From a virus (taxonomy: Duplodnaviria; Caudoviricetes): 64,000 bases of DNA. Every line of letters begins with the position of its first letter. The first letter of the stretch is position 1. Below the pieces are notes generated by a model. It saw only the letters and a program-made list of their open reading frames with translations. It did no database searches and was not told the origin of the DNA. The stretch lies in the IMG/VR virus record IMGVR_UViG_3300021387_000688. One strand, 5' to 3'. The position numbers and the translations under genes are program-made. Of this stretch, positions 4,069 to 63,023 are shown piece after piece.

Positions 4069-4752
4069 ATGGCACAAAAAACAGCTAATGGTACTTTTAC
4101 CGGAGTTACAGCAGGAGCTATACTACCCGGACACACACCAGCTAGTACATTGATGATGGCTACAGGCGATGCAATGGATAACATATTCGATGTTATGGTG
4201 GGTTGGCCAAGTGGATTAGACACTAGTGCTCCTATTGCAGAAGCATCTTATAGATGTGAAGGATTCAATGTACCTCAGGCAAAAACAAACACTCACAATG
4301 TAACATGGCATGGAGTTACAGTAAAGAAAGTAAGCTCTGGTATCAAGTTAGACAGAGAGCAGAAATTGAAATTCAGATATGATGCAAACTATGCACTATA
4401 TATGAGATTTAAAGCATGGAAGAGAATTACTGGAGATGTTAACACTAGTGGTGTAGCAAACACAGAATCCGCTTTAGGATGGTTTGCAGTAGTAGCACCT
4501 GGACAGGAATATAACTCTCAAAGTTTCTATAACATGATCACAAGTAACACAGATGATTCTGGTGATAATATCATGATTAATGATATGCAAAATATCAGGT
4601 TACTTTATTGGATTTTGAACAGTGCACAGGTAATAGATGTAGGAACCCCTCAATTCAAAAATCAAGGGGATGGTAAGGAAATGTGGTACGAGGTATCATT
4701 CATTTACGGTGATATGGCAGATCCATTTGAATCAGCTACTAAGGCAAGCTAA
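4069..4752 (+). CDS. gp19: Tail tube protein (T4 gp19-like)
   Basis: FDVMV..RCEGFNVP....VTWHG..VK.....KFRYDANY.LY..FKAW resembles gp19; late motif ACTAAATA, GGAGG SD, own terminator. Confidence 0.7.
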   Translation: MAQKTANGTFTGVTAGAILPGHTPASTLMMATGDAMDNIFDVMVGWPSGLDTSAPIAEASYRCEGFNVPQAKTNTHNVTWHGVTVKKVSSGIKLDREQKLKFRYDANYALYMRFKAWKRITGDVNTSGVANTESALGWFAVVAPGQEYNSQSFYNMITSNTDDSGDNIMINDMQNIRLLYWILNSAQVIDVGTPQFKNQGDGKEMWYEVSFIYGDMADPFESATKAS

Positions 4753-11231: not shown

Positions 11232-11258
11232 AAAATCCACCGCTATACTAATTGAAAT

Positions 11259-17200: not shown

Positions 17201-17282
17201 TAATACTCAAGCCGCTTTAGGTATCGTAGATAAAGTTGACTTTGGAATTAATGTTAACGTTCAAGAGTTGAAAGATAAATAA
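11259..17282 (+). CDS. Giant virion protein (2007 aa), Tyr/Trp/Asn-rich, probably baseplate/tail-associated
   Basis: Follows the tape measure gene; ACTAATTG late motif 4 nt before the ATG; aromatic-rich central region. Confidence 0.5.
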   Translation: MNIITDIHERAAYNKPITHFDSPKGIGQITAKDVAGWAELNSLVYGAENYSSLTYNNNVDANPDMVKSTSAAIMQAPDETFSTILTEEAQQVQGQVNSYVSKNFVQMFYETYMAPINTKDVNNRLGKVLGVVSDMHSLIPNGVPGIMAADNTASWKTTENFSFKFSEGLSKSHPDPYKTRTLDGAKWVTTAYRAWWAPGGWIGNPAATDEWRWQNGRWERGHFDGGEEIFTEYHSLAFPPYHSHEVVNTENLFEPKASETENATVSLREYKADRTYDMENLLYKKGIGTYRTPAFKAINDNIQTLQLFFNRCFGIESTYINEWDESLYIQEGLCNVRQTTDADGNTISAPSFVTTLTYGLLDDAPVPGVKGSSEVDLNKITPFASWNMAVSTRSGVDYVTTAQHCNEMDYMIKEYPLSTYWYPEYSGQNLGDMNVSRYIDDMFAYRENGANWDKNVSRNYTSAIKYGSLDSSTKSLLEVINYTDDKQAVLSGMNATDKDGKLYLLRTDGAYVNDGYGGNAYSYLPFWRQFFTSAEDGLSDIDILMQDVLYNDQDYNSYLDIGHRIIEMTTSDNSKFWDYLNQRSATFNPLPPAASQISQDNNASLIQDASSYGNIKIDIGIASFEIPHTALLKAWANKDKNTRAAMNKANQTGGMDNAVSVVNSNLKPTKKKASYVEDVNGAPQVVNEYTPEEDDDEAAKSALSYGAGVNNYSPFLYGGPHGQYLSPLTLEGYCQDENRFLATVPTQDSYTYYHNGIDKNYLNRTYSNFTKNYKNRGNFYDKITAVTPNERELLLTGNVNFGFLPKPQPNNYRWVYYSNYYYNYEMVTGGEYTSNAGTESAPRRYWDYAGRRNHYHNGQLIPATPSWMNNWWGNAIWGWIVTFSNSSKSTYSSGYLNDGYDDHHHYSNTYVLRHFGKYYWEEDVNLAPDFPYQDFMLLPVGQSLSDRGNINWDYIKSTINTDHNNRIQTDQFISHETWEVEDKSKPWRYQRLIKVQHYNPVENIVDWNAHCWYLVTPDKHPSNTWVDGTRYVTYSERGSAWYNALERMWRPSAGNEILCTLPINSGGGITNVVCAVGRIIKDFTYVYRYVWRLHLGWRWSWRWSWHWFHFHWWGGFYWYWKLHRIVGTETTYNLYIDTNRTRYNIPTKYLIDREAKVNSSRKFESSNPVERYATGETGGESGHLGTTGAPLLCPWEPRFKDYYGWYNNSKAMPGAYWSDEGNQYYRGGYHSGAFLMSKGIFFADMIENYRKHGQEAWYCTSTVPIVKSKIEHFYITARTKQSVGCNRWGYGTTSYVNNYNYRTGRYTYGLTNDNYWKYSDFYTYDDTHYHTLLCWADRANWVPNRWATHWTLTNIFREMPRTKSLIEYCKDGNNPTLAWYHATDPFDVYIDTAQQQIQWMKQLHGYVVNNITDKNIWDVYQKVTDKKIKNVTKMKNTAGSWDSSKMGPSPYFTNSFTEDVNYFDALDVVYRVFGVNAWNPKKNTIAELLAERIYYLEKFRNRALYLRNQLLVDSLPADIVRQFSILVSNTRLYLNCAQCYGRTVENTSYWGNEWYLSNVLMYSDHNTRYDLTRHPGTVLWAYLNVLYQARKYWVNLRLDKSFGSYWLLRGLERVLVFTMAQDTAVVPNLQEASSAIDVEDSTKKTSRKIHFVESRSKLGELIDSNNIEPTYTNAVYIKVDYLNVSDPTTNELYKNGKFDNKEIRYIPEVYKWAYKPTDQEYYVMSAYITSHLKEYTQTRKQVLDEIYACSYRLTANDYDKLRTSLTYLQESYIDKTLSSLGTLPEMEYRLEELQNALLQEKSTYYNGLIEDLLYPVYIKFEPEHVWTGNYKDDEKDGNYYIDEWQKEETAYKERTRRDSFGEKHKHTAPISAGITFDVMASIDVNKLLNNIGALQTATTAEILCECKNTIDLWRIELPKNMKVPTAYLEDKPILVPAFLIDLSVNGVLAKEKEPTPRDVLVGVSSTEMLPILEPSAGLLTVNTQAALGIVDKVDFGINVNVQELKDK

Positions 17283-22479: not shown

Positions 22480-24189
22480 ATGATGGTTTCAAAGATCAAC
22501 AAGCGTCCAGTAGCAAAACCAACAATTGCTAAAAAGGAAGCTGTTAAGAAAATGACAGAGAAAGCAGCACGTGCAGAAAAAGCTGCTTTAGTATGGAACA
22601 ACCACCCATTGTTTAAAGGTGAGTTGTCATCTATCAAGGAAGCAAAAGTTCGTCAGAATGCTGCTATCAACTTGACAAACCAGGCTCGTTATATGAAACA
22701 GTTGAACGAGCAGGAAACATCTACAGAGTTCCAGAGAATGGCACCTGCTAACATGATGAGATTGGTTCAGTTAACAATGACCAACTTGAATCGTGGAAAC
22801 GTATTCGCAGAGTACTCAATGGAAACTGCTCGTGATGCTATCTACTACATCAAGACATTCTTCTCTAAGAGCTCAGGTCCAAACGCTGGATTGATGGCTG
22901 AAAGATCTATGTCATATGATGGATCAGAAGGACAGGATCCATTCGGATTTGGTCCAAACGCTGATGAAGAATATCAGGTAGGTGGATACAATGGACGTAA
23001 TCCAATCTACGGTGGAAAGAAACGTGCTAACAACAACTACACAAACACAAACGCTCGTAAGGCTGTTTATGAAACTGTAGAATCTCGTTATGCTAACGAG
23101 TTGGCAAATGGTAAAGTAGAAGGTCTTACAATTTCTTGGGTTGGTGGTCCATTCGGAACTAACGGTGAATTGTATGTTCCAGGACAGTCTACAATTTATG
23201 CAGGAACAAATGAACAGGATGTAATCGCTATTCAGGATCCTTCAACTCTTGAGTATTTCGTAGCTCAGAAGTATAAGGGAGCAACTGTAGTAGAATCTCC
23301 AAGATCTGCTGAAGGTGGTCCAGTTACTGTAACTGTTGACTTCTCTGGTCTTGTAGAAGGTGAAGCACCTGCTACTATTAACGGATATGCTCGTTTCGAT
23401 TCAGAAACAGACTATGAAGGAAATCACCTCGGTGAAGTAAACTTGATGATGAGCGTTGCTGAGCTTCGTCCTCACAGAACATCTATTGGTGTATCTTGGA
23501 CAAAGTTGGCTGAGATTACTCTTGATGCTTCTTTCAACACTCAGATCGACGAAATCCTTTTGACATCTGCAGCTGATACAATTCACGCTCAGATGGATTA
23601 TCAGGCATTCAAGGAAGCTTATGCTTTCGCTTGTACAAACCCTAAGACATACACAGTTCACTTCGATGCTGCTTACTCAACAGACACAACTGGTGACAAG
23701 GGTACAAAAGATAGCTATACACAGACTGCTCAGACATTGTCTTCTGCAATCGAATTAGCTGGTGCTGCTCTTTACAGCGACATCAAACGTGGTGCTATCA
23801 ACAAGATGGTAGTTGGTGTATCTGTAGCTCCATATTTGAAACTTAACTTAGGTTTCGAACCAAAGGGACTTCAGGATCCAACAGGTGTTTACAAGATCGG
23901 TGAATTGGACGGAATCGAAGTATTCAAGGCTCCAGTAGAAGTTATCCCAGATAACGAGATCTTGTGTGTATACAAGAACGCTAAGGTAGAAAACGACGTT
24001 GCAATCGTATATGGTACATTAGTTCCATTCGTAAGCAACAAGTTGGAATATCCTACATTCTATACACGTGCTGGTCTTGCTTCATTCGGTGATCGTGCCG
24101 TATTGAACAGAAAGTATCTTGCACGTATCGTAATCGATAACTTGAAGGATCGTTTCAAGGGAACAGCTACAAACCCAACAGGTGAGTAA
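22480..24189 (+). CDS. gp23: Major capsid protein (T4 gp23-like, HK97 fold)
   Basis: LTNQARY, RLVQL...N....EYSM..A...IYY, L.P.R....VSW, IGELDGI.V, YGTLVP; highly biased codons; AGGAG SD; strong terminator. Confidence 0.88.
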   Translation: MMVSKINKRPVAKPTIAKKEAVKKMTEKAARAEKAALVWNNHPLFKGELSSIKEAKVRQNAAINLTNQARYMKQLNEQETSTEFQRMAPANMMRLVQLTMTNLNRGNVFAEYSMETARDAIYYIKTFFSKSSGPNAGLMAERSMSYDGSEGQDPFGFGPNADEEYQVGGYNGRNPIYGGKKRANNNYTNTNARKAVYETVESRYANELANGKVEGLTISWVGGPFGTNGELYVPGQSTIYAGTNEQDVIAIQDPSTLEYFVAQKYKGATVVESPRSAEGGPVTVTVDFSGLVEGEAPATINGYARFDSETDYEGNHLGEVNLMMSVAELRPHRTSIGVSWTKLAEITLDASFNTQIDEILLTSAADTIHAQMDYQAFKEAYAFACTNPKTYTVHFDAAYSTDTTGDKGTKDSYTQTAQTLSSAIELAGAALYSDIKRGAINKMVVGVSVAPYLKLNLGFEPKGLQDPTGVYKIGELDGIEVFKAPVEVIPDNEILCVYKNAKVENDVAIVYGTLVPFVSNKLEYPTFYTRAGLASFGDRAVLNRKYLARIVIDNLKDRFKGTATNPTGE

Positions 24190-25359: not shown

Positions 25360-25887
25360 TTAAATTCGTCCTGTAAAATCAATATAGCTATTAACTTTAT
25401 TACCTTTTTCTATTTTCAAAACCCTCTGATTTGTTGAACCTCTAAACTTCAAATTGATTAGATGCTTATCTTCTTCAAAAGGCCCATCTACTACCATATC
25501 TACATAAGACAATAATTGCTGCACTTTAGGTTCATTAATCCTATCGTCTAAATTGTAACCTGTCCACAACCAAATGTCTTTTGTAGATCCAAATTCTTCT
25601 TTACACTTTTTAACTAACTCAATGACTCCATCGATGTTAAAATCTGATAAAGGTTCTCCGCCTAATACAGATAATCCTGAGATGTAACTTTTTGACAAAG
25701 ACCTTATTACCTTATTTTCCGAATCTGCATCCCATTTCTTTCCAGACCTTGGGTCCCATGCTTTTGAATTATGGCATCCTTTACAAGCATGTCCTTCCAT
25801 AGCCAATTGACATCCAGAAAAATATACAGAAACCCTTAAACCAGGGCCATCTGCAGTACTACAGACTCTTATCAATGAATAGTTCAA
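25360..25887 (-). CDS. nrdG: Anaerobic ribonucleotide reductase activating enzyme (radical SAM)
   Basis: DGPGLRVSVYFSGC...CKGCHN, LGGEPL, IWLWTGY, VDGPF, FRGSTNQR; TTG start with AGGAG SD. Confidence 0.95.
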   Translation of the reverse strand: MNYSLIRVCSTADGPGLRVSVYFSGCQLAMEGHACKGCHNSKAWDPRSGKKWDADSENKVIRSLSKSYISGLSVLGGEPLSDFNIDGVIELVKKCKEEFGSTKDIWLWTGYNLDDRINEPKVQQLLSYVDMVVDGPFEEDKHLINLKFRGSTNQRVLKIEKGNKVNSYIDFTGRI

Positions 25888-26852: not shown

Positions 26853-28650
26853 TTTTTTCCTCTTTAAGTAAATCTTCTATTTCAGCCACTGCTTTATCTA
26901 CATCAGGCCCATAACCTTCAACTTCTGAATTATCCGCAATATCCTTTTGGAGCGCTTCAATCTTCTTTTGAACATTATCGGCTTGTTTAAGTACTTCTTC
27001 ATCTTCTACTTCTACTGCAGGTTCTTCTTTTATCTCAGGTATTTCGGAATCTTCTTCTGCAGTTAAAGGCCTAGGTTTCTTAGTTTTCTTAGGCTTCTCA
27101 TCTACAGATTCCGATTCCTTTTCTGGTTCTCCAGAATACATTTTTACATAAGCTTCAGTACGTCTTTCAATTTCGTGTTCAATCCATTTAGACTGTCTCT
27201 TAGCAATTACATCAATTACTTTATCCATTTTGAAATCATACTTAGCTTGACTATAAGAACCGTCATCCAAATAGTTGTTATAAATCTTAATTAAGAAGTG
27301 ATTAATATCTAACCCTTTACTCTCCATTGATTTAAGATCTAAGTATTCAGAGAATTGAGAAAGTGCGCGCCTATCAATAGTTGACTTTGGAGTATAAAGT
27401 GCAATAATAAGTTCCTGTACAATACCAAATACCATGATTAAAATCATCATCATAACTTCAGTTGTACCAAACGAATTCGTAGACACTTTCTGTTCTGTAA
27501 TGTTTTCCAAAGTAGCTTTATTAGTAAACTTACTTTCAAGTGCAGGACCAATAATCATAAACATCTTGGCAGATTGTCCAACATCTCCACTATCGTTTTC
27601 GTAAGCGGATTGTATATCCCCTAGCGTCTGTAAAGACTTTGAAATGTTATCAGGATCGAATACAACTGGGCTACCATCTGGCCAAGTAAATCTTCCTTCT
27701 AGGTTTTCAATTTCTTGTTTAGCTTTATTATTTGTTTTATCTGCCAATTCGGTTAAACTATCCAAAGAAGTATTTGCAACAGAAGCTTCGATTTCTTTTT
27801 TAATAGTTGTAGCTAATTGGGCTTCGGAAGTAATGTTACGAATTTGATAAAGGCTTAAGTTTCTATAAACATTTACATCTTTTTGAACTTTTGCATTTCT
27901 TTCAGTCCAGTAATCGTCTGGAATAATTTCTTTACCTTTCCATTCAATTGGTTCTCTGGAATCACGTGCAACTGGGAACTCAGCCATTTCTGCACGATAC
28001 TCTTCAATGATTGGCCAAATCTTTGCGGCTTGAGTTGCAGCAGTATCAGCTGCATTGCTTGATGCATTTGTTCCTTTTACCAATGCCTTAAACTGTTCTT
28101 CATCTGAAACGTCTGCGGTACTACTATACTTTGCAATCTTTTCATAAGCTTGTTTAGCTTTCAAGATTTCATTTTGATTCTTACGTACAGCATCTCCAAT
28201 AGAAACAACTGACAAAGATATTGCAGTAATAAGAGATACTGTAATTAAGAATTTGTGCGCAAAGTTCCATCTTAGTTTAGGCTTATTTAATGCCAAAAAT
28301 GGTAAATCATTTTCCTTTAAACGAGCTTGTAATTCTTTAATTACACTTAACTGGGTTGCACACCAGAACTTAGCTGATGTAAAACCAATAGACATTAAAG
28401 TATAAACAATTCCTGCGGCAACTGAGATTGTAGCAATCTTAAAAATAGATTTTGATAATTCTGAGAAGAATACCAAATCGATGATCCCGGATACGAAAGA
28501 CAAAATAAGTAATGTCACTATCTTTCCTGATATCAGGATTTCAGTTGAATCGATAGTTGGTTTTTCAAAAAACTTTTCGCCTTTCTTACTTCCCCATTTC
28601 CAATGAATGGTTGGTAACTTAATTGTTCTTTTCTTTTTCGTATTTTTCAT
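26845..28650 (-). CDS. Multi-pass membrane protein with a large helical extracytoplasmic region
   Basis: Three N-terminal and one C-terminal hydrophobic helices, basic N-terminus, acidic tail. Confidence 0.65.
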   Translation of the reverse strand: MKNTKKKRTIKLPTIHWKWGSKKGEKFFEKPTIDSTEILISGKIVTLLILSFVSGIIDLVFFSELSKSIFKIATISVAAGIVYTLMSIGFTSAKFWCATQLSVIKELQARLKENDLPFLALNKPKLRWNFAHKFLITVSLITAISLSVVSIGDAVRKNQNEILKAKQAYEKIAKYSSTADVSDEEQFKALVKGTNASSNAADTAATQAAKIWPIIEEYRAEMAEFPVARDSREPIEWKGKEIIPDDYWTERNAKVQKDVNVYRNLSLYQIRNITSEAQLATTIKKEIEASVANTSLDSLTELADKTNNKAKQEIENLEGRFTWPDGSPVVFDPDNISKSLQTLGDIQSAYENDSGDVGQSAKMFMIIGPALESKFTNKATLENITEQKVSTNSFGTTEVMMMILIMVFGIVQELIIALYTPKSTIDRRALSQFSEYLDLKSMESKGLDINHFLIKIYNNYLDDGSYSQAKYDFKMDKVIDVIAKRQSKWIEHEIERRTEAYVKMYSGEPEKESESVDEKPKKTKKPRPLTAEEDSEIPEIKEEPAVEVEDEEVLKQADNVQKKIEALQKDIADNSEVEGYGPDVDKAVAEIEDLLKEEKNV

Positions 28651-28728
28651 GATAATCTTATTTAGTTTTCCTTAAAATCTGAATATCAATATAGAAAAAG
28701 AAACGGGATGGGAATTAAAAATGGCAAT

Positions 28729-28755
28729 AAAAAAGGCCTATACAACGTATAGGCC
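28729..28755 (-). terminator. Intrinsic terminator after the topoisomerase gene
   Basis: GGCCTATAC-xxx-GTATAGGCC followed by a T-run on the minus strand. Confidence 0.85.
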
Positions 28756-28774
28756 CGGAGGTACAAATTATAAC

Positions 28775-30475
28775 TTATTTGAACAATTTTTCAAACTGTT
28801 CCATCTGAGTTTTGCTATAAATTCTTTCAAGTGGCATATCGATTTTACGACACCACTTAGATACGATAGCTGGATCGATATAAGCACCTTTTGAAGTAGA
28901 TGCTGTAAAGTTCTGAGTCTTTTCTTTCTGAGAAAGATTCATTTTTGCAATATCGTACTTCTGCTTTGTATTTTCATTCTGTTCCTGAAGTTTCTTAACC
29001 TTATCTTTCCAACCTTCTTTCTTTGCAGCTTTCAAAGCTTTAATCTTAGCTTCGCGTTTTGCAATTGTTTCTTCAACTTTTGCTTCACGTTCTTTAAGAC
29101 TTTCTTCCTTCTCGGCAAACTTTGCTTTACGCTTTTCTTCTGCAACTTTGTTAACACCGCGCTGATGATTCAGTCTCTTTGCAACTTCCATATTTGCTTC
29201 TTCAAATGCAAGTTTCTTAAGAGCAATTGGAGAATCCTTAGTTACATGGAACTTCTTAACAGCTTCTTCCAATGCATTTGTCATTGTATAAGCGGCTACT
29301 GCAGTACGAGCAAGTTTAGGAGAGAAGATTCCGTCAAGCTCAGGTACAATTGCACCTATATAAGCCTTAATATCATTTTTGTCAGTTTTGAGCTGTCCAA
29401 ATTCTTTCCAATGCTCTTCAATTTTAGCAGCAAATTCTGTTTCGATTTCAGATACGTCGTGAACCGAATCCTTTCCAAGGAAGTCAAATTTGATTTTGTT
29501 ACCAGAACGTTTTACATCCTTTCCCCATACAAGTGAAAGAAGTCCTTTTGTTCCATTTGTAGTTGCTTTCTTTTCTCCGATACGGATACCTTTTTCAAAA
29601 AGAAGGAATACAGCAATTACAGTTCCTAAATCCTTTGCTTTCTTAGAATTGAAATCGTTCTTAACAGTTTCAAGAATCTTTCCGTAAGATTCTCCAAGTT
29701 CTGCACCAGCATCGTATTTTTTCATCTGTCCTTCAGTCTTTACAGAAGACTTTGCACTAAACATAATCTTCTTACGAGTTGAAGAATAAACTTTAATCAT
29801 TCCACCTTGAGCGTTTGGTACACCAACGACGCTCGGATAATCTGCACAGTGATGAGATTCTGGACGCCATTCATTATGCCATTTTGATTTTTTAGTTTTT
29901 GGATCAACGTAATTAATTACTTCATCCCCGCTGATCAATACTGGATGCTTTTCTGAATTTGTATTCAATACAACATCTTCTGCGGTTACTGCCATTTTCC
30001 AATAACCTGCATAAGGGCAACCTGGGCGACCTGCGTAAATTCCTTCAGGCTCCAATACCCAAGACTGTAAAGGCTCTTTCTCCCCATCTACTATTGCAAA
30101 GCCATATTTTTCTTTACGAAGCTTGTTTGCTTCTTTAGTTTTTTCTTTTCCTTCTTTATCAGCGTCTTTTGCAGCCTTTACTTCTGCATACCATGCACGC
30201 CATTTTTTGATTTCTGGATCTTCGTTTACAAATGCTGGAAGATTAAGATGTCTAGATTTTGTCAACCAATCAGGTCCACCGGCAGCTTCGATACATTCGA
30301 AAACATGTTTAATCCAATTTTCGTCTTGGAAACAAGGAAGTTCTGGATTCCTTCTACAGAAGTCTCCGAAAATTCTATTATAAAGAAGAGAGCCATCAGC
30401 GAAAGGAGGAACAGGTACGAGACCTGGTACTTCCACTGCTTCAAGTTCCAAAGATTTCATAGGTTCAAGTTTCAT
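28775..30475 (-). CDS. DNA topoisomerase IB, long eukaryote/thaumarchaeon-like form
   Basis: KYGFAIVDGEKE, EPEGIYAGR, FDFLGKDS, NHQR, STSKGAYIDP, IYSKTQ; catalytic R298, K335, R390, H437, Y532. Confidence 0.95.
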   Translation of the reverse strand: MKLEPMKSLELEAVEVPGLVPVPPFADGSLLYNRIFGDFCRRNPELPCFQDENWIKHVFECIEAAGGPDWLTKSRHLNLPAFVNEDPEIKKWRAWYAEVKAAKDADKEGKEKTKEANKLRKEKYGFAIVDGEKEPLQSWVLEPEGIYAGRPGCPYAGYWKMAVTAEDVVLNTNSEKHPVLISGDEVINYVDPKTKKSKWHNEWRPESHHCADYPSVVGVPNAQGGMIKVYSSTRKKIMFSAKSSVKTEGQMKKYDAGAELGESYGKILETVKNDFNSKKAKDLGTVIAVFLLFEKGIRIGEKKATTNGTKGLLSLVWGKDVKRSGNKIKFDFLGKDSVHDVSEIETEFAAKIEEHWKEFGQLKTDKNDIKAYIGAIVPELDGIFSPKLARTAVAAYTMTNALEEAVKKFHVTKDSPIALKKLAFEEANMEVAKRLNHQRGVNKVAEEKRKAKFAEKEESLKEREAKVEETIAKREAKIKALKAAKKEGWKDKVKKLQEQNENTKQKYDIAKMNLSQKEKTQNFTASTSKGAYIDPAIVSKWCRKIDMPLERIYSKTQMEQFEKLFK

Positions 30476-30494
30476 TATATTCTCCTATGTTAAA

Positions 30495-30530
30495 AATATA
30501 GCTTTTGCGGGTTTAAGAATTTTCGGAAAA
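30495..30530 (-). promoter_or_regulatory. TTTTnnGAAA-N20-TATATT promoter (representative copy, before topoisomerase IB)
   Basis: Same spacing at -24788/24817, -31690/31719, -41523/41552 and +57727/57756; N19 at -5216/5244. Confidence 0.65.
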
Positions 30531-30531
30531 A

Positions 30532-30687
30532 TTAAGACCAAGCCAAAGTTTCTGGATTTTCTACAATCTTTTCTGCGGTAGCTTCAATGGCTTCTTCCAA
30601 ATCGTATTGATTGGTTGCAATCAAATATTTAATACGCTGAATACGGATCATGCGATCTGAAATAGTTTTACTTACCTTTTTGAACAT
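30532..30687 (-). CDS. FlgM-like (anti-sigma28) small protein, 51 aa
   Basis: MFKKVSKTISDRMIRIQRIKYLIATNQYDLEEAIEATAEKIVENPETLAWS; perfect AGGAGGT SD; below the ORF-track length cutoff. Confidence 0.55.
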   Translation of the reverse strand: MFKKVSKTISDRMIRIQRIKYLIATNQYDLEEAIEATAEKIVENPETLAWS

Positions 30688-30698
30688 AAAATACCTCC

Positions 30699-30989
30699 TT
30701 AGTTTTTATGTAATGCATAAATCAAATAGTTTTTAGCTCCGGCTACTCTTTTTGCAAATTCGGAATCATTTAGCGGAATCAATTCTGCATAAATGTTTAG
30801 AGTTTCCAACTGCCCGTTTTTGTCGTAAACTTTTGAAGCATAAATTACATGATCTACTCCAGTTTTCTTCAAAACCTTTTTAGCCTGCATTTCATACTTT
30901 TGAATCTGTTTCGGAATCTGATCCAATTTAATAGTTCCAAAAGATGTATAATACTGGTGATGTTCCTGATACTCTACAGCTCTAAACAT
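30699..30989 (-). CDS. Hypothetical protein
   Basis: Start moved to MFRAVEY (AGGGGG SD); coupled to the upstream DUF2786-like gene. Confidence 0.65.
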   Translation of the reverse strand: MFRAVEYQEHHQYYTSFGTIKLDQIPKQIQKYEMQAKKVLKKTGVDHVIYASKVYDKNGQLETLNIYAELIPLNDSEFAKRVAGAKNYLIYALHKN

Positions 30990-30993
30990 TTTA

Positions 30994-31683
30994 TTACCCC
31001 CTATATTCAATTCCGGTTGCACCGAACTGGCGATTAAGAGAAATGTTATTTCCCTCTACCATTCCGCTTGTATAAGCAATTGAATCTCTTATAGCTGCTC
31101 CGTTCATTTTATAATCACCAAGTTTGCCATAAGAATTATTAATCCAATTTTCTACTTCATCAAGTGGTACTAAACCCCACTTGTCAGTTTTTGGAGCAGT
31201 TGATTTAATTTCATTGATTTTAGTTCTAACAGAATCTACTACACCAGTACAGTAAGCATTTCTAGAAGAAGGGCAATCTCCAACTCTTCTAGCTTCTTTA
31301 ATAGTTTTGTCACGAATCCAATTATACATCAACTTTGCAGTCAATCTGTTGCCTTCGCGACCAATTACTACAAGATGACATTTCTTATCCCAATAAGTTC
31401 CCAAACCAGATCTTAATACTTTACAATCGAACAACTTACTGATGGATACAAAAAGATTGATTTCCCATTTACGATACTGTTTTTTATCTTCGTCCAATGT
31501 TTCTTGATCCAAGCAACCCAAGATTTCGTCTCTTGAATATTTCTGGACATCTTCCATAGATATTCCGTGCTCGCGCATCAAATCATAAGCTCTTTTTAAA
31601 GCTGTTTCTGCTTCGCCAGCATAATCAGTACCGTTTCCAAGATTTATAAGTTTTTCAATTTTCGAAAGTAATTTGTCATCCAT
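30994..31683 (-). CDS. DUF2786-domain protein
   Basis: KLLSKIEKLINL......EAETALKRAYDLMREHGIS N-terminus; W...LF..I..LF.C; S.NAY..G. Confidence 0.85.
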   Translation of the reverse strand: MDDKLLSKIEKLINLGNGTDYAGEAETALKRAYDLMREHGISMEDVQKYSRDEILGCLDQETLDEDKKQYRKWEINLFVSISKLFDCKVLRSGLGTYWDKKCHLVVIGREGNRLTAKLMYNWIRDKTIKEARRVGDCPSSRNAYCTGVVDSVRTKINEIKSTAPKTDKWGLVPLDEVENWINNSYGKLGDYKMNGAAIRDSIAYTSGMVEGNNISLNRQFGATGIEYRG

Positions 31684-31932: not shown

Positions 31933-33726
31933 TTAGGCTCCGAATCCGATTCGTTTAGATTCTGTTTTTTGTAACTTTTCTTTTTGACAGAAATCTATCA
32001 ATTGATTAATATCAGGTTTAGTTCCATAAAGGATATAATCCATTTCAGATTTTCTAACAATATTATCAATCTGTCCACCTGACAAATCAAACTCGTTTGC
32101 AAGCCGTTTAGAATCTTCATCTGAAAGTTCTGGCATCTTGTTTTTCCAAATCTTCTGTTTAACTTCCAATGTTGGATTTTCAAACTTAAGCTTAAACAAT
32201 AAACGCCTATCAAAAGCACTATCCAAGTTATCAGTCATGTTAGAAGTTAAACAACAAATGCCGTCAAACTTTTCAAACTCTTCCAATATAATGTTTTGGA
32301 TAGAATTTTCCATTTTAGTTACAGATGCATTTCTATCACCGTCCAAAGAACTTCGTTTAGAAATAATTGCATCTGCTTCATTGAACAACAAAATAGGTTT
32401 TAATACATCTGTACAACTTCTGTAAGTATCGAATACTTTTTTAATATTCTTTTCAGATTCGCCTACCCAACAATTTCTGATTTCTTGAATGTTAACATGC
32501 AATACACTTCGTCCTGTTTTCTTAGCAATTTGCATTACAGTTTCAGTTTTACCAGTACCAGGAGCGCCATGTAATAATATTGTCAATCCTTTTGGTAAAT
32601 TCTTTTCTTCCAAACGCTTTCTCATTTCTTGGAAAGTTTCTTCTTTACAAAGATTTTCCAAACGTTCGATATCTTTTGCATTAGCAGGGTTGTAGAAGAG
32701 TTCTTTAGCTTTAATATCTTCTACATTTATTTTACCCAATTCTTTTATAGTAGCTTGATGAAGATATAAAGCATTATCTCCTTTGAAAATCATTTCCTTA
32801 GCTTTATTGCCCCACATAAGCATCATATCGTCCCCAAAGTTGTTTTTATCGACTTCAAAGATTTTTTCTTTTATAAAATAATTGGTTTCATTTTTAAAAG
32901 TTTTTAAAAGATCAATTACATCGCGAGGAGTTGCATTTCTTATAACAGTCTCTATTACTTCCCTACAACTTATACTATCATCTTTCAACAAATAAGAACC
33001 TGCGTAAGTAAAGAACTGTAAAGGTTCTTCTACTCTGCCAAAACCTTCTGGTACAGCATCCATTGTTTCAGGAATAAGTGGTTTAAGAATAGGATCGTCT
33101 TTGTATAAGGCGTTTACGATTTTACTATAATAATCTACTTTGTTTGTCCATCCTTCCCTATTGACCCTTGTTAAATAAGAAAGAGTATCAAATACAGTAT
33201 CTGTATTAGTAGGTTTGTGAGGCTCAAACTTTTGATTGTACTGGGCCCTTTTTAATACATCATCTGCTACTACAAATTGCAATAAAGAATCAAAAGACCC
33301 CTCGATATAAGGTACATCAAACCTACAAGACAAAACATTTTTCTTTAACAAATAATCCATATCTGGATAGTACTCGCCATATTCTGAAGGCATTACATCC
33401 ATATCTGTTTGCAGATCATTCATGTCAAAGTACATTGATCCGTTTACAGATTCTACTGCAAAGTAAGAAAACAAGCAGGCCTGAGCTTTAGATAATTTTG
33501 CATATCTCATAACCTGCTGTAAAGATTGAGTTGTTGGAATATCTATTTTATTCTTTCTACACATAGAGAGGTATACATCCCTCATCGCAGCGAAGATAGG
33601 TTTCTTTGTTGGTTTTCTTTTAGATTCTGTTTTGGATTTGCTCACTTTTTCTGCACCTGCCGTTAGCATTCTTTTTCTAGCTTTAATATTATTATTAGTG
33701 AGAAAAATTCTATCTATATCTCCCAT
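31933..33726 (-). CDS. AAA+ ATPase (classic clade) with a long N-terminal domain
   Basis: GAPGTGKT, WVGESEKNI, LLFNEAD, TSN...LDSAFDRR, LSGGQIDN, C-terminal IGF. Confidence 0.9.
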   Translation of the reverse strand: MGDIDRIFLTNNNIKARKRMLTAGAEKVSKSKTESKRKPTKKPIFAAMRDVYLSMCRKNKIDIPTTQSLQQVMRYAKLSKAQACLFSYFAVESVNGSMYFDMNDLQTDMDVMPSEYGEYYPDMDYLLKKNVLSCRFDVPYIEGSFDSLLQFVVADDVLKRAQYNQKFEPHKPTNTDTVFDTLSYLTRVNREGWTNKVDYYSKIVNALYKDDPILKPLIPETMDAVPEGFGRVEEPLQFFTYAGSYLLKDDSISCREVIETVIRNATPRDVIDLLKTFKNETNYFIKEKIFEVDKNNFGDDMMLMWGNKAKEMIFKGDNALYLHQATIKELGKINVEDIKAKELFYNPANAKDIERLENLCKEETFQEMRKRLEEKNLPKGLTILLHGAPGTGKTETVMQIAKKTGRSVLHVNIQEIRNCWVGESEKNIKKVFDTYRSCTDVLKPILLFNEADAIISKRSSLDGDRNASVTKMENSIQNIILEEFEKFDGICCLTSNMTDNLDSAFDRRLLFKLKFENPTLEVKQKIWKNKMPELSDEDSKRLANEFDLSGGQIDNIVRKSEMDYILYGTKPDINQLIDFCQKEKLQKTESKRIGFGA

Positions 33727-52267: not shown

Positions 52268-52354
52268 TAAATTAATCCTCCAATTCAACTTTAAACAAAA
52301 TTTATATTCTTGTTTAATTAGTTAGTTGAATTAGAGGATTATAAGGATTGAATA

Positions 52355-56406: not shown

Positions 56407-57651
56407 TTATGAATAACAGTCCAGAAGTTTACTAATGAACAAGTCCTTCGTAAAGAATCCGTCTGTATTAAGTTTGAAAATGGCGTCCTTAAGCTTCTGA
56501 TAATTTACACCCTGTGAAAGTTTTGTAGCACGATTGAAAGAAGCTCTTTCTCCACCATCCGTGTTAGCATCTGTAATTTTCAATTCTTCTGAACCGTCTT
56601 TCTTAACTTTAGTTGTTCCAATTCTTCCGAATACTCTTACCATCTCTGCTCTACGAATTTCAGACATCATAATCTGATAAACTGTTACGTAGTTATCTTT
56701 TGTGATAGATGCTAACTGCATAAACGCGTCGTCAGTTTTTGCATTTGTTGCAATAGATAATGTTACGTCAAGTACTTTTGTCTCTGGAATAAATCCAAAC
56801 ATTCTACCAATTGCACTTGGATCAAATGTCTTTGTTTCAATACACTGCTGAAGAATACGAGTTGCATTTCTAATAGAACCTACAGCTCCTTCTGCCATAG
56901 CTTTTACACCTTCAAGACAGAAATCTTTTCCCCCGTTTGCAATCATCCATTTCCAAAGATTTTCACCCTGATACTCATTTGCTACTGCAAAGTCGTGAAT
57001 ATATTTCATCAAATCTGAAACACTCAGATCTGAAAACTTGAATAAGTTACATCTAGAAACAAATCCTGCCGCACCTGCTTTTCTTGTTTTAGAACCATTA
57101 AGTTCTGTTTCTACGTTAGTTGAGTTTGTTCCAATCTCATCCATTGAAGTAAAGATCCAATTTGTCTTTGCGTCAGGTCTTTCCAACTCTCTCAACAATG
57201 CATCAATTGCACCCTGAGATTTTAACAATTCCTGAATTTCTTCAAAGATGATTACTTTTCTCTTTCCCCAGAAAGGCTGTTCTTTTGATTTTTCAACTAA
57301 TGCTTTTACAGCATCTACCTGAGAAGTAAATTTACCATCTGAGTTTAAAGTATCAGCTCCAATTACTTTTACATCGCGGGAATATTTACCTTCCAATACT
57401 GCTTTACAATCTGGACAATCTCCGCATGGATTTCCATCAGCATCTTTATGCTGACAAACCATTGTCATTGCAATAATTCTTGCAGTTGTTGTTTTTCCTG
57501 TTCCATATTTACCCATCAAAAGAATACCACGAGGCCATTTATCATCTTTTGCATGAGTTGCTACGAAATCTTTAAGTAATGTACATCCATGTACTTCAGA
57601 CATCTTAGTTGGTCTTGCGTCAATTGCCCACTGTTTTCCTGTTAAATCCAT
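56407..57651 (-). CDS. dnaX: Clamp loader ATPase, DNA pol III gamma/tau-like
   Basis: WA..ARP....EV.G; G.YGTGKTT.ARI.A; C...PCGDCPDC; SRC; GSIRNA. Confidence 0.85.
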   Translation of the reverse strand: MDLTGKQWAIDARPTKMSEVHGCTLLKDFVATHAKDDKWPRGILLMGKYGTGKTTTARIIAMTMVCQHKDADGNPCGDCPDCKAVLEGKYSRDVKVIGADTLNSDGKFTSQVDAVKALVEKSKEQPFWGKRKVIIFEEIQELLKSQGAIDALLRELERPDAKTNWIFTSMDEIGTNSTNVETELNGSKTRKAGAAGFVSRCNLFKFSDLSVSDLMKYIHDFAVANEYQGENLWKWMIANGGKDFCLEGVKAMAEGAVGSIRNATRILQQCIETKTFDPSAIGRMFGFIPETKVLDVTLSIATNAKTDDAFMQLASITKDNYVTVYQIMMSEIRRAEMVRVFGRIGTTKVKKDGSEELKITDANTDGGERASFNRATKLSQGVNYQKLKDAIFKLNTDGFFTKDLFISKLLDCYS

Positions 57652-60747: not shown

Positions 60748-60774
60748 CACCTAGAGGAAACTCTAGGTGTTTTT
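60748..60774 (+). terminator. Intrinsic terminator
   Basis: CACCTAGAG-GAAA-CTCTAGGTG plus T-run. Confidence 0.9.
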
Positions 60775-60799
60775 CGTTAACACCAACTATAATATTAAC

Positions 60800-61583: not shown

Positions 61584-63023
61584 ATGGCTTACGAAAGTGA
61601 AAATCAGTATGCAATGGATTGTATAGCTGCCAGTGTAGGTACAGCTTTAAGTGAAGATTTTTATACGAGGGATTATGATATCTTAATTGGATATGAAAAA
61701 CCTTTTCAAAGGATTTGTTCTTCTTTTATAGACTTTGTAAAAACTATTAGTTTTGAAAATGTTCTTAAATACGGTACTATCGAAAACTTTACAGAAACCT
61801 ATACAAACAAAAAAGGTGCAGCTATTTCTGAAGATGAACAATCTATCATAGATATAATTTACGAACAGATTAATTACAACAAAACTAATAACAACGGGGG
61901 TTTGAAAGAACCTAACAATCTTTGGAAAAAGTTAGGAGAAGCTAGACGCAAAATCAATCTTTATAAATCTACAGAAGAGTTGACCAAGAGCGGAACTTAT
62001 TCTACTAACCCTGTTACATGGTCGGATTCTTATTATGAAGAATTACAGAAGAGTATGGCAGATGCTTCTATTTCAAACGTAGAAACAGAAGAACAATTAT
62101 TGATGGCGGAAGACTTAGTTTCTTATTATAAAGAAACTTTGGATAAACGTGAACAAGGCTCTCATTATTCTTGGCATAATCAAATCTTTGATGAACTTAT
62201 TGAAGAAGGTCCAACTCCAGGTCATGGGGGAATTATCGGTGGTTCTACAGGTATGGGTAAATCAACTTTATGTCTTAACGTAATAGATGATTTAATCAAT
62301 GCAGATGTTCCAACTATTTACTTCCCTATAGAAATGGGGGTAGAAAATACAATGGACCGTTTAGCTTCAAAACGAACTCATATTCCATTTAAGGAAATTA
62401 CAAAGCTTGGTAGAAGTGATACTATCAAAGATGCAAGAGCAATTATTGATCACGAAATAGATGGTTTGTTAGCCCATAGTAATTTTGCTATTGTTAGAGA
62501 CCCTTGCATTACAATGCCTAAATTGAGATCTTATGTAAAGAGATTCCAATCTAAATTACCAGGCAATAAATACTGTATTGTATTTATAGACTTGTTGTTA
62601 ATGATTTCTGAGTTTTATGATGGCGGAGAAGGTTCAATGGCACAGATGATTGAAAAGGCCGTTAACAAACTTGATATTCTTGCAAAGGAATTGGGTTTCC
62701 ACTGGGTAGGAGTTGTACAGTTGAATAGATCTGTAGAAACAGATAAAGTTCAGTCAATGCAGTCTATTGATAAATTAAAACCAACTCGTTCAGCTATTAA
62801 AAACTCTTCAGCTTTGTTGGAACGTGCACGATGGGCTATTACTATTTTCAGAAAGAAGTATTTCGCGGATTTATATTTACCAGAAGATGAAGCTGCAACT
62901 ATTGAAGATATTGCAGAAATACAATTGATGAAAGCTAATGATGAAGCATTAGGAAGAAGATATGCAATCTTTGATGGACCTACATTTACTATAACTCCAA
63001 TGCAGGATGAGAGAGTAGCATAA
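61584..63023 (+). CDS. dnaB: Replicative DnaB-family helicase
   Basis: GGSTGMGKST, IEM, IVFIDLL, LAKEL, VQLNR, IKNSSAL. Confidence 0.92.
   Translation: MAYESENQYAMDCIAASVGTALSEDFYTRDYDILIGYEKPFQRICSSFIDFVKTISFENVLKYGTIENFTETYTNKKGAAISEDEQSIIDIIYEQINYNKTNNNGGLKEPNNLWKKLGEARRKINLYKSTEELTKSGTYSTNPVTWSDSYYEELQKSMADASISNVETEEQLLMAEDLVSYYKETLDKREQGSHYSWHNQIFDELIEEGPTPGHGGIIGGSTGMGKSTLCLNVIDDLINADVPTIYFPIEMGVENTMDRLASKRTHIPFKEITKLGRSDTIKDARAIIDHEIDGLLAHSNFAIVRDPCITMPKLRSYVKRFQSKLPGNKYCIVFIDLLLMISEFYDGGEGSMAQMIEKAVNKLDILAKELGFHWVGVVQLNRSVETDKVQSMQSIDKLKPTRSAIKNSSALLERARWAITIFRKKYFADLYLPEDEAATIEDIAEIQLMKANDEALGRRYAIFDGPTFTITPMQDERVA

What the first reader, a model, noticed from the sequence alone, without database searches (positions are those of the whole stretch)
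28775..30475. Eukaryote-type (long-form) topoisomerase IB in a bacteriophage
Seen: the 566-aa protein aligns by eye with human TOP1 along its length. Cap domain KYGFAIVDGEKE..EPEGIYAGR matches EYGFCIMDNHKE..EPPGLFRGR. FDFLGKDS is identical, NHQR is shared, there is a roughly 80-aa K/E-rich coiled-coil linker, and C-terminal STSKGAYIDP..WC.K..PLERIYSKTQ matches GTSKLNYLDP..WCKK..PIEKIYNKTQ. The catalytic pentad R298/K335/R390/H437/Y532 corresponds to human R488/K532/R590/H632/Y723. Known: bacterial and poxviral TopIB are short forms without this cap and linker; the long form is known from eukaryotes and Thaumarchaeota. The gene has its own phage promoter, SD and terminator, so it is integrated into the phage genome. 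A531 replaces human N722, a position where substitutions give camptothecin resistance. Inference: an ATP-independent swivelase for a large phage genome, relevant to the origin of eukaryotic TOP1.
Basis: partly seen in the sequence, partly recalled or inferred. Interest (0 to 1): 0.9.

Follow-up and report, generated by a model that had tools for sequence, protein, structure and literature searches.

The report
Eukaryote-type topoisomerase IB in huge phage
A roughly 380-kb gut bacteriophage, probably of Treponema, carries a complete, conserved copy of the long DNA-relaxing enzyme topoisomerase IB, a form described until now only in eukaryotes and one group of archaea, and related copies turn out to be widespread in large uncultivated phages.

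Summary
Confirmed. The ORF at 28775-30475 (-) encodes a 566-aa protein that passes all three Pfam models of long-form TOP1: Topoisom_I_N, Topoisom_I and Topo_C_assoc.

- **Structure:** its AlphaFold model (pLDDT 90.5) superposes on human topo70 from end to end (Z 26.6, rmsd 3.1 A, 511 residues; model 1-566 = human 212-757). This includes an ~80-aa coiled-coil linker.
- **Catalytic residues:** the pentad R298/K335/R390/H437/Y532 is invariant in 32 relatives.
- **The gene belongs here:** GC3 is typical of the window and dN/dS is 0.11. Independent assemblies from other studies bridge both junctions, and synteny is conserved.
- **The element is a phage:** a T4 gp23-type major capsid gene lies 4.6 kb away. 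Relatives sit on 240-425-kb contigs with rIIA/rIIB-type, DnaB and clamp-loader genes.
- **Host:** probably Treponema (inferred).
- **Wider picture:** many deep phage lineages carry long-form TopIB. The TopIB known from cultured jumbo phages (phiRSL1, Lu11, PaBG) has a different architecture.
- **Prior reports:** I found no paper reporting the long form in phages.
- **Not supported:** the gene's 'own promoter' and the camptothecin inference.
- **Origin:** the tree root, and so any bearing on the origin of eukaryotic TOP1, is unresolved (AU p = 0.47).

An earlier first-reader note covers this same stretch as read in an overlapping window. The scan had not noted it on other DNA.

The parts
28775..30475 (-). 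Gene for a 566-aa long-form (TOP1-type) topoisomerase IB, stop codon included
   Evidence: ORF; three Pfam domains; human TOP1 is the best PDB match by sequence and by structure
30197..30475 (-). Residues 1-93: N-terminal part of the cap. It is family-specific in sequence, is not matched by Pfam, and has conserved C40/C48/C61
   Evidence: No Pfam match before residue 94. It is structurally equivalent to human 212-~300 and to yeast N-fragment 141-363 (VIA: model 2-241, Z 15.8). Conservation
29864..30196 (-). Residues 94-204: Topoisom_I_N (DNA-binding cap) match
   Evidence: PF02919, E 1.7e-13, profile positions 91-201 of 213
29069..29749 (-). Residues 243-469: Topoisom_I catalytic core
   Evidence: PF01028, E 1.2e-24, profile positions 2-226 of 228
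29582..29584 (-). R298 codon (human R488)
29471..29473 (-). K335 codon (human K532), in FDFLGKDS
29306..29308 (-). R390 codon (human R590)
29165..29167 (-). H437 codon (human H632), in LNHQRG
28907..29155 (-). Residues ~441-523: K/E-rich antiparallel coiled-coil linker (helices 443-484 and 489-520)
   Evidence: AF2 secondary structure; aligned to the human linker within the 212-757 superposition
28790..28963 (-). Residues 505-562: Topo_C_assoc, the C-terminal domain carrying the catalytic tyrosine
   Evidence: PF14370, E 8.4e-14
28880..28882 (-). Y532 codon, the catalytic tyrosine (human Y723); the preceding A531 (28883-28885) sits at the human N722 position
30482..30486 (-). Shine-Dalgarno AGGAG, 6 nt before the ATG
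28734..28756 (-). Intrinsic terminator: 10-bp stem with 5 GC pairs, then TTTTTATT, 19 nt after the stop codon
   Evidence: Contigs from RNA library X16 end at 28726 and start at 28756, on either side of the hairpin, while DNA contigs run through it (weak hint only)
22480..24189 (+). Context: 569-aa major capsid protein of T4 gp23 type, which marks the element as a tailed phage
   Evidence: Homologues carry Pfam Gp23. The AF2 model's top Foldseek matches are all phage capsid proteins: P1 2e-9, jumbo phage S6 2e-7, T4 1e-3
4069..4752 (+). Context: candidate tail tube protein (weak)
   Evidence: phrog_45 'tail tube', E 1.6e-5
61584..63023 (+). Context: DnaB-type replicative helicase, preceded by a DnaC-like loader at 60767-61582
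   Evidence: PF03796 6e-23, phrog_19 4e-31; phrog_50
56407..57651 (-). Context: clamp loader (Pol III delta'-like AAA+)
   Evidence: PF13177 1e-20, phrog_5846 4e-32
25360..25887 (-). Context: NrdG-like radical-SAM activase (Fer4_12), syntenic with the TopIB gene in relatives
   Evidence: PF13353 5e-44; same neighbour in L001, L005 and L033
30994..31683 (-). Context: DUF2786/DUF7168 gene upstream. Together with the AAA ATPase (31933-33726) it keeps its order in the 83%-identical relative

Best explanation
The ORF is a native gene of a roughly 380-kb T4-like huge phage from ruminant and other gut microbiomes, probably infecting Treponema-family spirochaetes. It encodes a complete TOP1-type (long-form) type IB topoisomerase. 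Shown here: the three-domain architecture, the closed C-clamp fold of human topo70 including cap, catalytic core, coiled-coil linker and C-terminal tyrosine domain, an invariant R-K-R-H-Y pentad, purifying selection, and stable residence in the phage genome. Inferred from the established TOP1 mechanism: the enzyme clamps duplex DNA, Y532 attacks one strand to form a 3'-phosphotyrosyl link, and the downstream duplex swivels under the control of the cap and linker before religation. This relaxes positive and negative supercoils without ATP or Mg2+. The most likely role is to remove the torsional stress made by replication and dense bidirectional transcription of a very large genome. A bacterial host offers only ATP-dependent enzymes (gyrase, topo IV) against positive supercoils. 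The TopIB would act alongside the phage's own type IIA topoisomerase, a gyrB-like gene seen near the TopIB in relatives.
For: Identity: Pfam x3 over cut-offs; human TOP1 best by sequence, E 1e-36; AF2 model pLDDT 90.5 / pTM 0.78; Foldseek TM 0.76/0.76 to 1rrj; VIA Z 26.6, rmsd 3.1 A, 511 aa, model 1-566 = human 212-757. Short pox and bacterial forms cover only the catalytic part (TMq 0.25-0.31). The pentad is invariant in 32 relatives. Native and selected: GC3 0.256 within the window's 0.20-0.34, and dN/dS 0.11 against the 83% orthologue. Gene order is conserved in an independent assembly. Contigs of two other studies bridge 28300-30991 in one piece at 96-97.5% identity. Contigs from two metatranscriptome libraries cover parts of the gene. 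Phage: gp23-type capsid gene 4.6 kb away; weak tail tube match; DnaB, DnaC-like loader, clamp loader, thymidylate kinase. Relatives lie on 240-425-kb contigs. L011 is an IMG/VR viral contig with a CheckV estimate of 35% of a genome at 140 kb. The Atlas's nearest cluster is labelled Uroviricota. A gyrB-like gene is near the TopIB in relatives. Biochemical precedent: the archaeal long form relaxes both signs of supercoil (PMC4824112).
Against: No biochemical test has been done. Transcription is not proven, because RNA libraries can contain DNA and contigs cannot show transcript ends. Terminase, portal and sheath were not found, but only two terminase/sheath Pfam models were tried, and only on partial relatives. 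The window itself holds mostly unannotatable ORFs. Host assignment rests on co-binning in one MAG and on a host-like flagellin gene in a relative. The timing of expression and the need for a swivelase beside a type II enzyme are inferred.
Confidence: 0.85

Rival explanations
1. Host-takeover weapon rather than housekeeping enzyme. Once expressed, a swivelase that needs no ATP would dissipate the gyrase-maintained negative supercoiling of the host chromosome. That would depress host transcription and replication while the phage genome is served by its own enzymes.
For: The gene lies in a block of non-structural genes read on the same strand as an AAA ATPase, DUF2786 and small ORFs. In other phage lineages the TopIB sits among typical early-gene arrays (SAM lyase, MazG) or beside rIIA/rIIB-type genes. 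Bacteria depend on negative supercoiling (established knowledge).
Against: Nothing distinguishes host DNA from phage DNA for such an enzyme. The gene is conserved next to replication and nucleotide-metabolism genes (TK, dUTPase, DNA polymerase A, NrdG), which fits a replication role equally well. No expression timing is known.
Confidence: 0.1
2. Virion-packaged enzyme acting at the start of infection, as vaccinia TopIB is encapsidated and promotes early transcription, or acting during packaging or ejection of a roughly 380-kb genome.
For: Precedent from poxviruses (established knowledge; the encapsidated nicking-closing enzyme is cited in PMC4824112). The capsid gene is only 4.6 kb away. Unchecked earlier notes describe many putative capsid-cargo proteins in this genome.
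Against: The gene is transcribed on the opposite strand from the capsid gene and sits with non-structural genes. No prohead-protease-type targeting motif was examined. No proteomic data exist.
Confidence: 0.04
3. Not a bacteriophage gene. Either it is a eukaryotic, archaeal or giant-virus fragment mis-assembled or mis-binned into the contig, or the element is a giant plasmid-like replicon such as an Inocle.
For: The family's nearest named relatives are eukaryotic and archaeal TOP1. Most ORFs of the window match no phage family. Inocles are also about 350-395 kb with about 95% unknown genes (PMC12340149).
Against: Independent contigs from other studies bridge both junctions. Synteny is conserved. 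Composition is native. A gp23-type capsid protein was confirmed by fold. Replisome genes are bacterial-type. The family is only 25-29% identical to cellular TOP1 and forms its own clade with support 100. Samples are ruminant and other gut, not oral. The Inocle paper reports no TopIB in Inocles.
Confidence: 0.01

Closest known systems
Human/eukaryotic nuclear TOP1 (topo70 core + linker + C-terminal domain; PDB 1K4T, 1A36, 1RRJ)
   Same: Same three Pfam domains, same catalytic pentad, and the same closed-clamp fold over the whole length (Z 26.6, rmsd 3.1 A, 511 aa; model 1-566 = human 212-757). The linker is a two-helix coiled coil of about 80 aa, like the human 76-77 aa.
   Different: Only about 22% identical. 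It lacks the charged, disordered eukaryotic N-terminal domain. The first 93 residues are too diverged for the Pfam model and carry a family-specific Cys pattern. Ala or Ser replaces N722. It is encoded by a bacterial virus.
Thaumarchaeal/Aigarchaeal long-form TopIB (Cs-TopIB, PDB 6Z01/6Z03; PMC2621148, PMC4824112, PMC8748870)
   Same: A prokaryote-world long form of similar size (539 aa against 566 aa) without the eukaryotic N-terminal tail and with all domains and the pentad. Shown to relax positive and negative supercoils, so it is the best functional precedent.
   Different: About 21-22% identity in the Foldseek structural alignments. The archaeal linker is shorter (53 aa, PMC4824112). The archaeal genes are chromosomal (aRF1, FTR and dap neighbours), whereas this one is phage-borne. 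In the tree the archaeal clade groups with eukaryotes, not with this family.
Phage-specific TopIB of cultured jumbo phages phiRSL1, Lu11, PaBG and Motura (Iyer et al. 2021, PMC7824862)
   Same: Tyrosine-recombinase-fold type IB catalytic core (PF01028 over cut-off) in proteins of similar length (559-561 aa) in jumbo phages.
   Different: Only the catalytic core matches (residues ~304-516). There is no Topoisom_I_N, no Topo_C_assoc and no coiled-coil linker; the Tyr motif follows the core directly. The ~300-aa N-terminus is unrelated. BLASTP against P0001 gives E 0.25. tblastn of P0001 finds nothing in 50,697 deposited phage genomes.
Short poxvirus/bacterial TopIB (variola 2H7F/3IGC, Deinococcus 2F4Q/3M4A)
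   Same: Same chemistry and catalytic-domain fold (Z 15-16 over about 200-260 aa).
   Different: About 310-340 aa with a small N-terminal domain instead of the cap and no linker. They cover only about a quarter to a third of the model (TMq 0.25-0.31).
Other long-form TopIBs on viral contigs (IMG/VR L012, L013, L015; giant-virus MAG L014; metagenomic P0156-P0215)
   Same: All three Pfam domains and 545-640 aa. Their contexts are phage-like (rIIA-like and rIIB genes, RecA-like gene, clamp loader, DnaG, RNA ligase, endolysin, SAM lyase).
   Different: 26-35% identical to this protein. Most keep the canonical N-terminal W..L.HNGP.FP..YE start of Topoisom_I_N, which this family has lost. L014/L016 (giant-virus MAG) group with eukaryotes.

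Membership tests
Long-form (TOP1-type) topoisomerase IB | Topoisom_I catalytic core (PF01028) above the gathering score | tested here: met
   87.4 bits against 23.7, residues 243-469, profile positions 2-226 of 228
Long-form (TOP1-type) topoisomerase IB | Topoisom_I_N DNA-binding cap (PF02919) | tested here: met
   51.1 bits against 25, but only profile positions 91-201 (residues 94-204). The remaining N-terminal 93 aa are equivalent by structure (model 1-566 = human 212-757; yeast N-fragment Z 15.8).
Long-form (TOP1-type) topoisomerase IB | [quoted passage not shown] | tested here: met
   51.7 bits against 25.1, residues 505-562
Long-form (TOP1-type) topoisomerase IB | Catalytic pentad Arg-Lys-Arg-His-Tyr at the homologous positions | tested here: met
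   R298/K335/R390/H437/Y532 align to human R488/K532/R590/H632/Y723 and are invariant in 32 relatives
Long-form (TOP1-type) topoisomerase IB | Coiled-coil linker between the core and the C-terminal domain | tested here: met
   Helices 443-484 and 489-520 in the model, pLDDT mostly 82-94 with a dip to 72 at residues 441-450; superposed with human topo70 including the linker
Long-form (TOP1-type) topoisomerase IB | ATP- and Mg-independent relaxation of positive and negative supercoils through a 3'-phosphotyrosyl intermediate | not testable with these tools
   Needs purified protein. The precedent is Cs-TopIB (PMC4824112).
Short poxvirus/bacterial TopIB | About 310-350 aa, a small N-terminal domain (VirDNA-topo-I_N or Top1B_N_bact), no cap, no linker | tested here: not met
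   566 aa. Pfam lists no such domain at E <= 1. Structures of the short forms cover only the catalytic part (TMq 0.25-0.31).
Phage-specific TopIB of phiRSL1/Lu11/PaBG type | Catalytic core preceded by an unrelated ~300-aa N-terminus, with the Tyr motif directly after the core | tested here: not met
   Those proteins hit PF01028 only and have no PF02919 match. BLASTP against P0001 gives E 0.25.
Tailed bacteriophage (Caudoviricetes), T4-like huge phage | HK97-fold major capsid protein of gp23 type | tested here: met
   Window 22480-24189. Homologues carry PF07068. The top Foldseek matches are all phage capsid proteins.
Tailed bacteriophage (Caudoviricetes), T4-like huge phage | Large terminase, portal, contractile tail sheath and tube | tested here: inconclusive
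   Tail tube phrog_45 at only 1.6e-5. Terminase_6N and Phage_sheath_1 were not found on the partial relatives L011 and L015. The window covers only about a sixth of the genome.
Tailed bacteriophage (Caudoviricetes), T4-like huge phage | Bacterial host | tested here: inconclusive
   DnaB, a DnaC-like loader and a Pol III delta'-type clamp loader. TopIB and capsid homologues are binned in one Treponema MAG. A flagellin in a relative is 62-70% identical to flagellins in 31 of 31 Treponema-family genomes. No CRISPR-spacer or culture evidence.

The most novel reading that the evidence does not exclude
Long-form TopIB is primarily a phage enzyme. It has radiated deeply in T4-like huge phages of bacteria. 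The versions in Nitrososphaerota and in eukaryotes (and through them giant viruses) form one clan that descends from within this phage diversity. On this reading eukaryotic TOP1 would have a viral origin, as has been argued for eukaryotic Topo IIA, and would not be an inheritance from the archaeal-eukaryotic ancestor. With the only available outgroup the root does fall among the phage lineages, and phage branches (P0166/P0167, L012/L013, P0200) lead stepwise to the cellular clan with supports of 94-100. The outgroup branch is very long, and the AU test does not reject the alternative rooting (p = 0.47).
Probability: 0.2. Interest if true: 0.85.

Novelty: new member of a known kind. Interest (0 to 1): 0.68.

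Why it matters
The distribution of long-form TopIB (eukaryotes plus Thaumarchaeota only) has been used as a phylogenetic hallmark. It has also been used as evidence that the enzyme was present in the common ancestor of Archaea and Eukarya (PMC2621148, PMC4824112).

A large, deeply diverged set of bona fide long forms in bacteriophages changes that picture. There are 1,892 representatives at E <= 1e-3 and 231 at E <= 1e-30 in the 50%-identity library. That count includes cellular TOP1, and many of the best 150 are eukaryote-length. Every non-archaeal, non-eukaryote lineage whose gene context I checked is phage-like.

This adds a third, very diverse reservoir and an obvious vehicle for horizontal transfer, and it makes the origin question testable with much denser sampling. 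It is also the first indication I could find that viruses of bacteria use the eukaryotic solution (an ATP-independent controlled-rotation swivelase) for the topology of very large genomes.

In practical terms these are compact, tail-less TOP1 homologues with a human-length linker. They could serve as models for TOP1 mechanics and inhibitor specificity.

Tried and rejected
1. **Inocle hypothesis.** The paper search pointed to the 395-kb Streptococcus 'Inocle' elements (PMC12340149). Its TopIB mention is only a citation about Deinococcus. Nothing in the text reports a TopIB in Inocles, and the capsid gene and gut origin argue against this reading.
2. **Jug phages** (360-402 kb, PMC12880540). Size and T4-likeness are similar, but GC is lower (27-30%), hosts are Bacteroides, and only topoisomerase IV is mentioned. 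No identity is claimed.
3. **Deposited phage genomes.** tblastn of P0001, whole or residues 230-566, against 50,697 records found no match even at E 10. megablast of 20 kb of the window also found none.
4. **Hallmark searches that found nothing.** Terminase_6N and Phage_sheath_1 on the partial relatives. PDB sequence searches of the 1804-aa and 1316-aa ORFs. Atlas search of the 1149-aa ORF. Most large ORFs have no Pfam or PHROG match. These blanks do not show absence.
5. **The search for homologous proteins with 'longer'.** No fused forms of 992 aa or more (weak evidence).
6. **NCBIfam.** No model names either this protein or the phiRSL1 one.
7. **Own sigma-70 promoter.** None by consensus scan.
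8. **Rooting.** The phiRSL1-type outgroup gives a root inside the phage lineages, but the tool warns that long branches meet, and the AU test leaves phage monophyly unrejected. No direction of transfer is claimed.
9. **Cysteine geometry.** Model coordinates are not exposed to scripts, so the conserved N-terminal cysteines could not be measured.
10. **An apparent joint.** The 389-base 'skip' in run X7 rests on 20- and 27-base pieces of a 614-base contig and is treated as spurious.
Full report
**1. Observation.** The window holds one 566-codon ORF on the minus strand, with ATG at 30475 and TAA at 28775-28777.

Pfam finds all three domains that define the long form of topoisomerase IB, each well above its curated cut-off:
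- Topoisom_I_N, residues 94-204, E 1.7e-13
- Topoisom_I, residues 243-469, E 1.2e-24
- Topo_C_assoc, residues 505-562, E 8.4e-14

A sequence search of all PDB chains puts human TOP1 first (E about 1e-36, query 95-561). Next come the archaeal Caldiarchaeum enzyme (6Z01, 5e-21) and Leishmania TOP1. It aligns R298/K335/R390/H437/Y532 with human R488/K532/R590/H632/Y723, and A531 with position 722. I checked the codons directly.

**2. Structure.** I aligned 32 relatives (A1, 46-83% identical). The pentad is invariant in all of them, and the residue before the tyrosine is Ala or Ser. An AlphaFold2 model built on this alignment is confident (mean pLDDT 90.5, pTM 0.78). It shows two long antiparallel helices, 443-484 and 489-520, where the human linker lies.

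- Foldseek against the PDB ranks human topo70-DNA complexes first (E 1.5e-27, TM 0.76 by both normalisations).
- VIA-align gives Z 26.6, rmsd 3.1 A over 511 residues. Model 1-566 spans human 212-757, which covers core subdomains I-III, the linker and the C-terminal domain.
- The first 93 residues, which Pfam does not match, are therefore still structurally part of the cap. The yeast N-terminal fragment 1OIS aligns to model 2-241 at Z 15.8.
- Variola and Deinococcus short forms match only the catalytic part (TMq 0.25-0.31; Z 15-16 over 196-271 residues).
- The linker of about 80 residues is human-like in length. The archaeal one is 53 residues (PMC4824112).

**3. Is the gene really part of this genome?** Yes.
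- GC3 (0.256) lies inside the range of the other window genes (0.20-0.34).
- dN/dS against the 83%-identical orthologue is 0.11.
- That orthologue, from a different sample, keeps the same neighbours in the same order: AAA ATPase, small ORF, DUF2786/DUF7168, two small ORFs, TopIB..., a 214-aa ORF, an NrdG-like gene..., a 569-aa ORF.
- Public runs from about ten studies hold the stretch.
- In two of those runs, single contigs cover 28300-30991 in one piece: one of 41.5 kb at about 97.5% identity and a sheep-gut contig of 4.3 kb at about 96%.

An assembly chimera at the gene borders is excluded.

Contigs from two metatranscriptome libraries cover parts of the gene. In one library the contigs stop on either side of the terminator hairpin while DNA contigs run through it. 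This is a weak hint of transcription and termination, not proof.

The SD (AGGAG, 6 nt before the ATG) and the terminator (10-bp stem plus T-run, 28734-28756) are real. A sigma-70-type promoter directly upstream was not found.

**4. Is it a bacteriophage?** The window is highly divergent, and most large ORFs match no Pfam or PHROG family. Several lines of evidence still point to a phage:
- The window encodes DnaB, a DnaC-like loader, a Pol III delta'-type clamp loader, thymidylate kinase and an NrdG-like activase.
- The 569-aa ORF at 22480-24189 is 67% identical to a frame on an IMG/VR viral contig that weakly hits Pfam Gp23.
- That ORF's homologues are unusually conserved, several carry the Gp23 domain, and one that is 99% identical lies on a 377,531-bp contig.
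- Its AlphaFold model's top Foldseek matches are all tailed-phage major capsid proteins: P1, jumbo phage S6, T4 gp23/gp24.
- A weak tail-tube match lies at 4069-4752.
- TopIB relatives lie on contigs of 240-425 kb.
- The IMG/VR member is estimated at 35% of a genome at 140 kb.
- The Atlas's nearest cluster is labelled Uroviricota.

Earlier unchecked notes of this scan place the window in one piece of at least about 380 kb with tRNA arrays. That agrees with the contig sizes I measured.

The alternative I examined, a giant plasmid-like 'Inocle', is not supported.

**5. Host.** Among 185,579 species genomes, the family occurs once, on a 65-kb contig binned into an uncultured Treponema MAG. That MAG also holds the capsid homologue on another contig. 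A flagellin gene a few kb from the TopIB in a 58%-identical relative is 62-70% identical over its full length to chromosomal flagellins in all 31 sampled genomes of the Treponema family. Samples are ruminant and other gut. A Treponema-family host is likely but inferred.

**6. How widespread, and what was known.** An exhaustive profile search of 1.84 billion representatives finds 1,892 proteins at E <= 1e-3 and 231 at E <= 1e-30. These form a graded series of 545-590-aa proteins between this family and eukaryote-length TOP1.

Every such lineage whose context I inspected is phage-like, apart from P0156, whose 2.4-kb contig shows no informative neighbours. The contexts include:
- DnaG primase
- RNA ligase, dCMP deaminase and a clamp loader
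- giant ORFs with IS605
- an rIIA-like GHKL protein with T4 rIIB and a RecA-like gene
- an endolysin
- SAM lyase and MazG
- ThyX and a SprT-like gene

By contrast, the ~530-aa 'DNA topoisomerase-1' clade is chromosomal in archaea (aRF1, FTR, dap genes). IMG/VR also holds long forms on 62-240-kb viral contigs and on a giant-virus MAG.

The literature searches found no report of a long-form TopIB in a phage. The standard statement is that the long form occurs only in eukaryotes and Thaumarchaeota (PMC2621148, PMC4824112, PMC8185306).

One relevant precedent exists. Iyer et al. (PMC7824862) noted a 'phage-specific' tyrosine-recombinase-fold topoisomerase I in phiRSL1, Lu11, PaBG and Motura. I located three of these genes. 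They are 559-561 aa and match only the catalytic core, with no Topoisom_I_N, no Topo_C_assoc and no linker. They show no significant pairwise similarity to the present protein. They are a different architecture.

**7. Phylogeny.** I ran a 94-row maximum-likelihood tree (LG+C20 PMSF, quick search).
- The window's family is a clade (13 rows, support 100). Its sister is P0156+P0057 (100). It sits inside a wide assemblage of phage-borne forms.
- Eukaryotes plus the giant-virus MAG (99) and the archaeal clade (100) join each other (82). Phage lineages L012, L013 and P0200 are next to them (99).
- With the phiRSL1-type proteins as outgroup, the root falls among the phage lineages and the cellular clan is nested.
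- The outgroup branch is very long and the tool flags long-branch attraction.
- The AU test does not reject a tree in which all phage long forms are one clade (delta lnL 1.6, p 0.47).

The direction of transfer between phages and cells is therefore open. Rows left out of the reduced tree: 50 of the 94, chosen to keep every major lineage.

**8. Mechanism.**
- *Shown:* architecture, fold, catalytic residues, selection and genomic residence.
- *Inferred from the TOP1 mechanism and from the biochemistry of the archaeal homologue:* a clamp around duplex DNA, nicking by Y532 with a 3'-phosphotyrosyl intermediate, controlled rotation moderated by cap and linker, religation, and relaxation of both signs of supercoil without ATP or Mg2+.
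- *Most likely role:* swivel for replication and transcription of a roughly 380-kb genome, beside a phage type IIA enzyme (a gyrB-like gene lies near the TopIB in relatives).
- *Rivals:* relaxation of the host chromosome as a takeover device, or a virion-packaged enzyme as in poxviruses. Neither is excluded, and both are rated low.
Cs-TopIB is resistant although it keeps N722 (PMC4824112).

**9. Verdict.** It is a new member of a known enzyme family, found in an unexpected biological setting. It turns out to be the tip of a large, unreported phage radiation of TOP1-type enzymes. Interest is substantial for topoisomerase evolution and huge-phage biology. It is tempered by three limits: the enzyme class is well understood, the sequences already sit unremarked in public databases, and the evolutionary question remains unresolved here.

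Noticed in passing
window 30197-30475 (-), residues 1-93 of the TopIB: The N-terminal ~90 residues are family-specific. The canonical W..L.HNGP.FP..YE start, present in other phage long forms (L012, L013, L015, L016), is missing. Instead there is a conserved F36-G37-x2-C40-x2-N43-P44-x-L46-x-C48...C61 pattern. This may be a metal or disulfide site. The geometry could not be measured because model coordinates are not exposed.
   Followed up: partly
L008 4227-6535; L009; L010 (relatives, 58% TopIB identity): Flagellin genes (Flagellin_N + Flagellin_C) lie a few kb from the TopIB in huge-phage relatives. The 283-aa one is 62-70% identical to chromosomal flagellins in all 31 sampled Treponema-family genomes. 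Earlier unchecked notes report FlaB/FlaA genes about 13.6 kb before this window. So this is a phage-borne spirochaete flagellin.
   Followed up: partly
L029 592-2271, L030 1267-2955 (-), L031 457-2142 (phiRSL1, PaBG, Lu11): The known 'phage-specific' TopIB of cultured jumbo phages is about 560 aa. Its ~300-aa N-terminal region matches no Pfam family, and the Tyr motif (TARANYIDP in phiRSL1) comes directly after the core. The function of that N-terminal half is undescribed.
   Followed up: partly
L033 12188-14623; L034 7455-11424: In two separate phage lineages the TopIB gene is followed closely by a large rIIA-like GHKL (HATPase_c_3) gene, and in L034 also by T4 rIIB. This may be a recurrent TopIB-rII neighbourhood.
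   Followed up: no
window 559-4008, 8169-17282, 41608-44295, 46874-56305: Six ORFs of 895-2007 aa match no Pfam or PHROG family, and two of them match nothing in PDB sequences. The 1149-aa ORF directly precedes the candidate tail tube and shares a 177-aa segment (32% identity) with another huge viral contig (L017), so it may be a sheath or another tail protein.
   Followed up: partly
window 30532-30687 (-) and 30699-31022 (-): Small ORFs just upstream of the TopIB gene (51 aa with AAGGAGG SD; 107 aa) are conserved in position in the 83% relative (52 and 113 aa in L005), so they are probably real genes. An earlier unchecked note calls the 51-aa one FlgM-like; this was not tested. Strains differ here: a one-base insertion at 30526, a one-base deletion at 30702, and a 155-base replacement at 30699-30703 in one RNA-library contig.
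   Followed up: no
L024 19563-20948; L039 13222-13950: IS605-family TnpB (OrfB_IS605 / Cas12f-like) genes sit within about 10 kb of the TopIB in two unrelated phage lineages.
   Followed up: no
L001 2608-3579 and 13618-16149; L008 16804-19280: Relatives carry family-A DNA polymerase in more than one piece, and RtcB split into two ORFs (149 and 208 aa). This is consistent with the gene fragmentation reported for huge gut phages and with earlier unchecked notes of a split polymerase just before this window.
   Followed up: no
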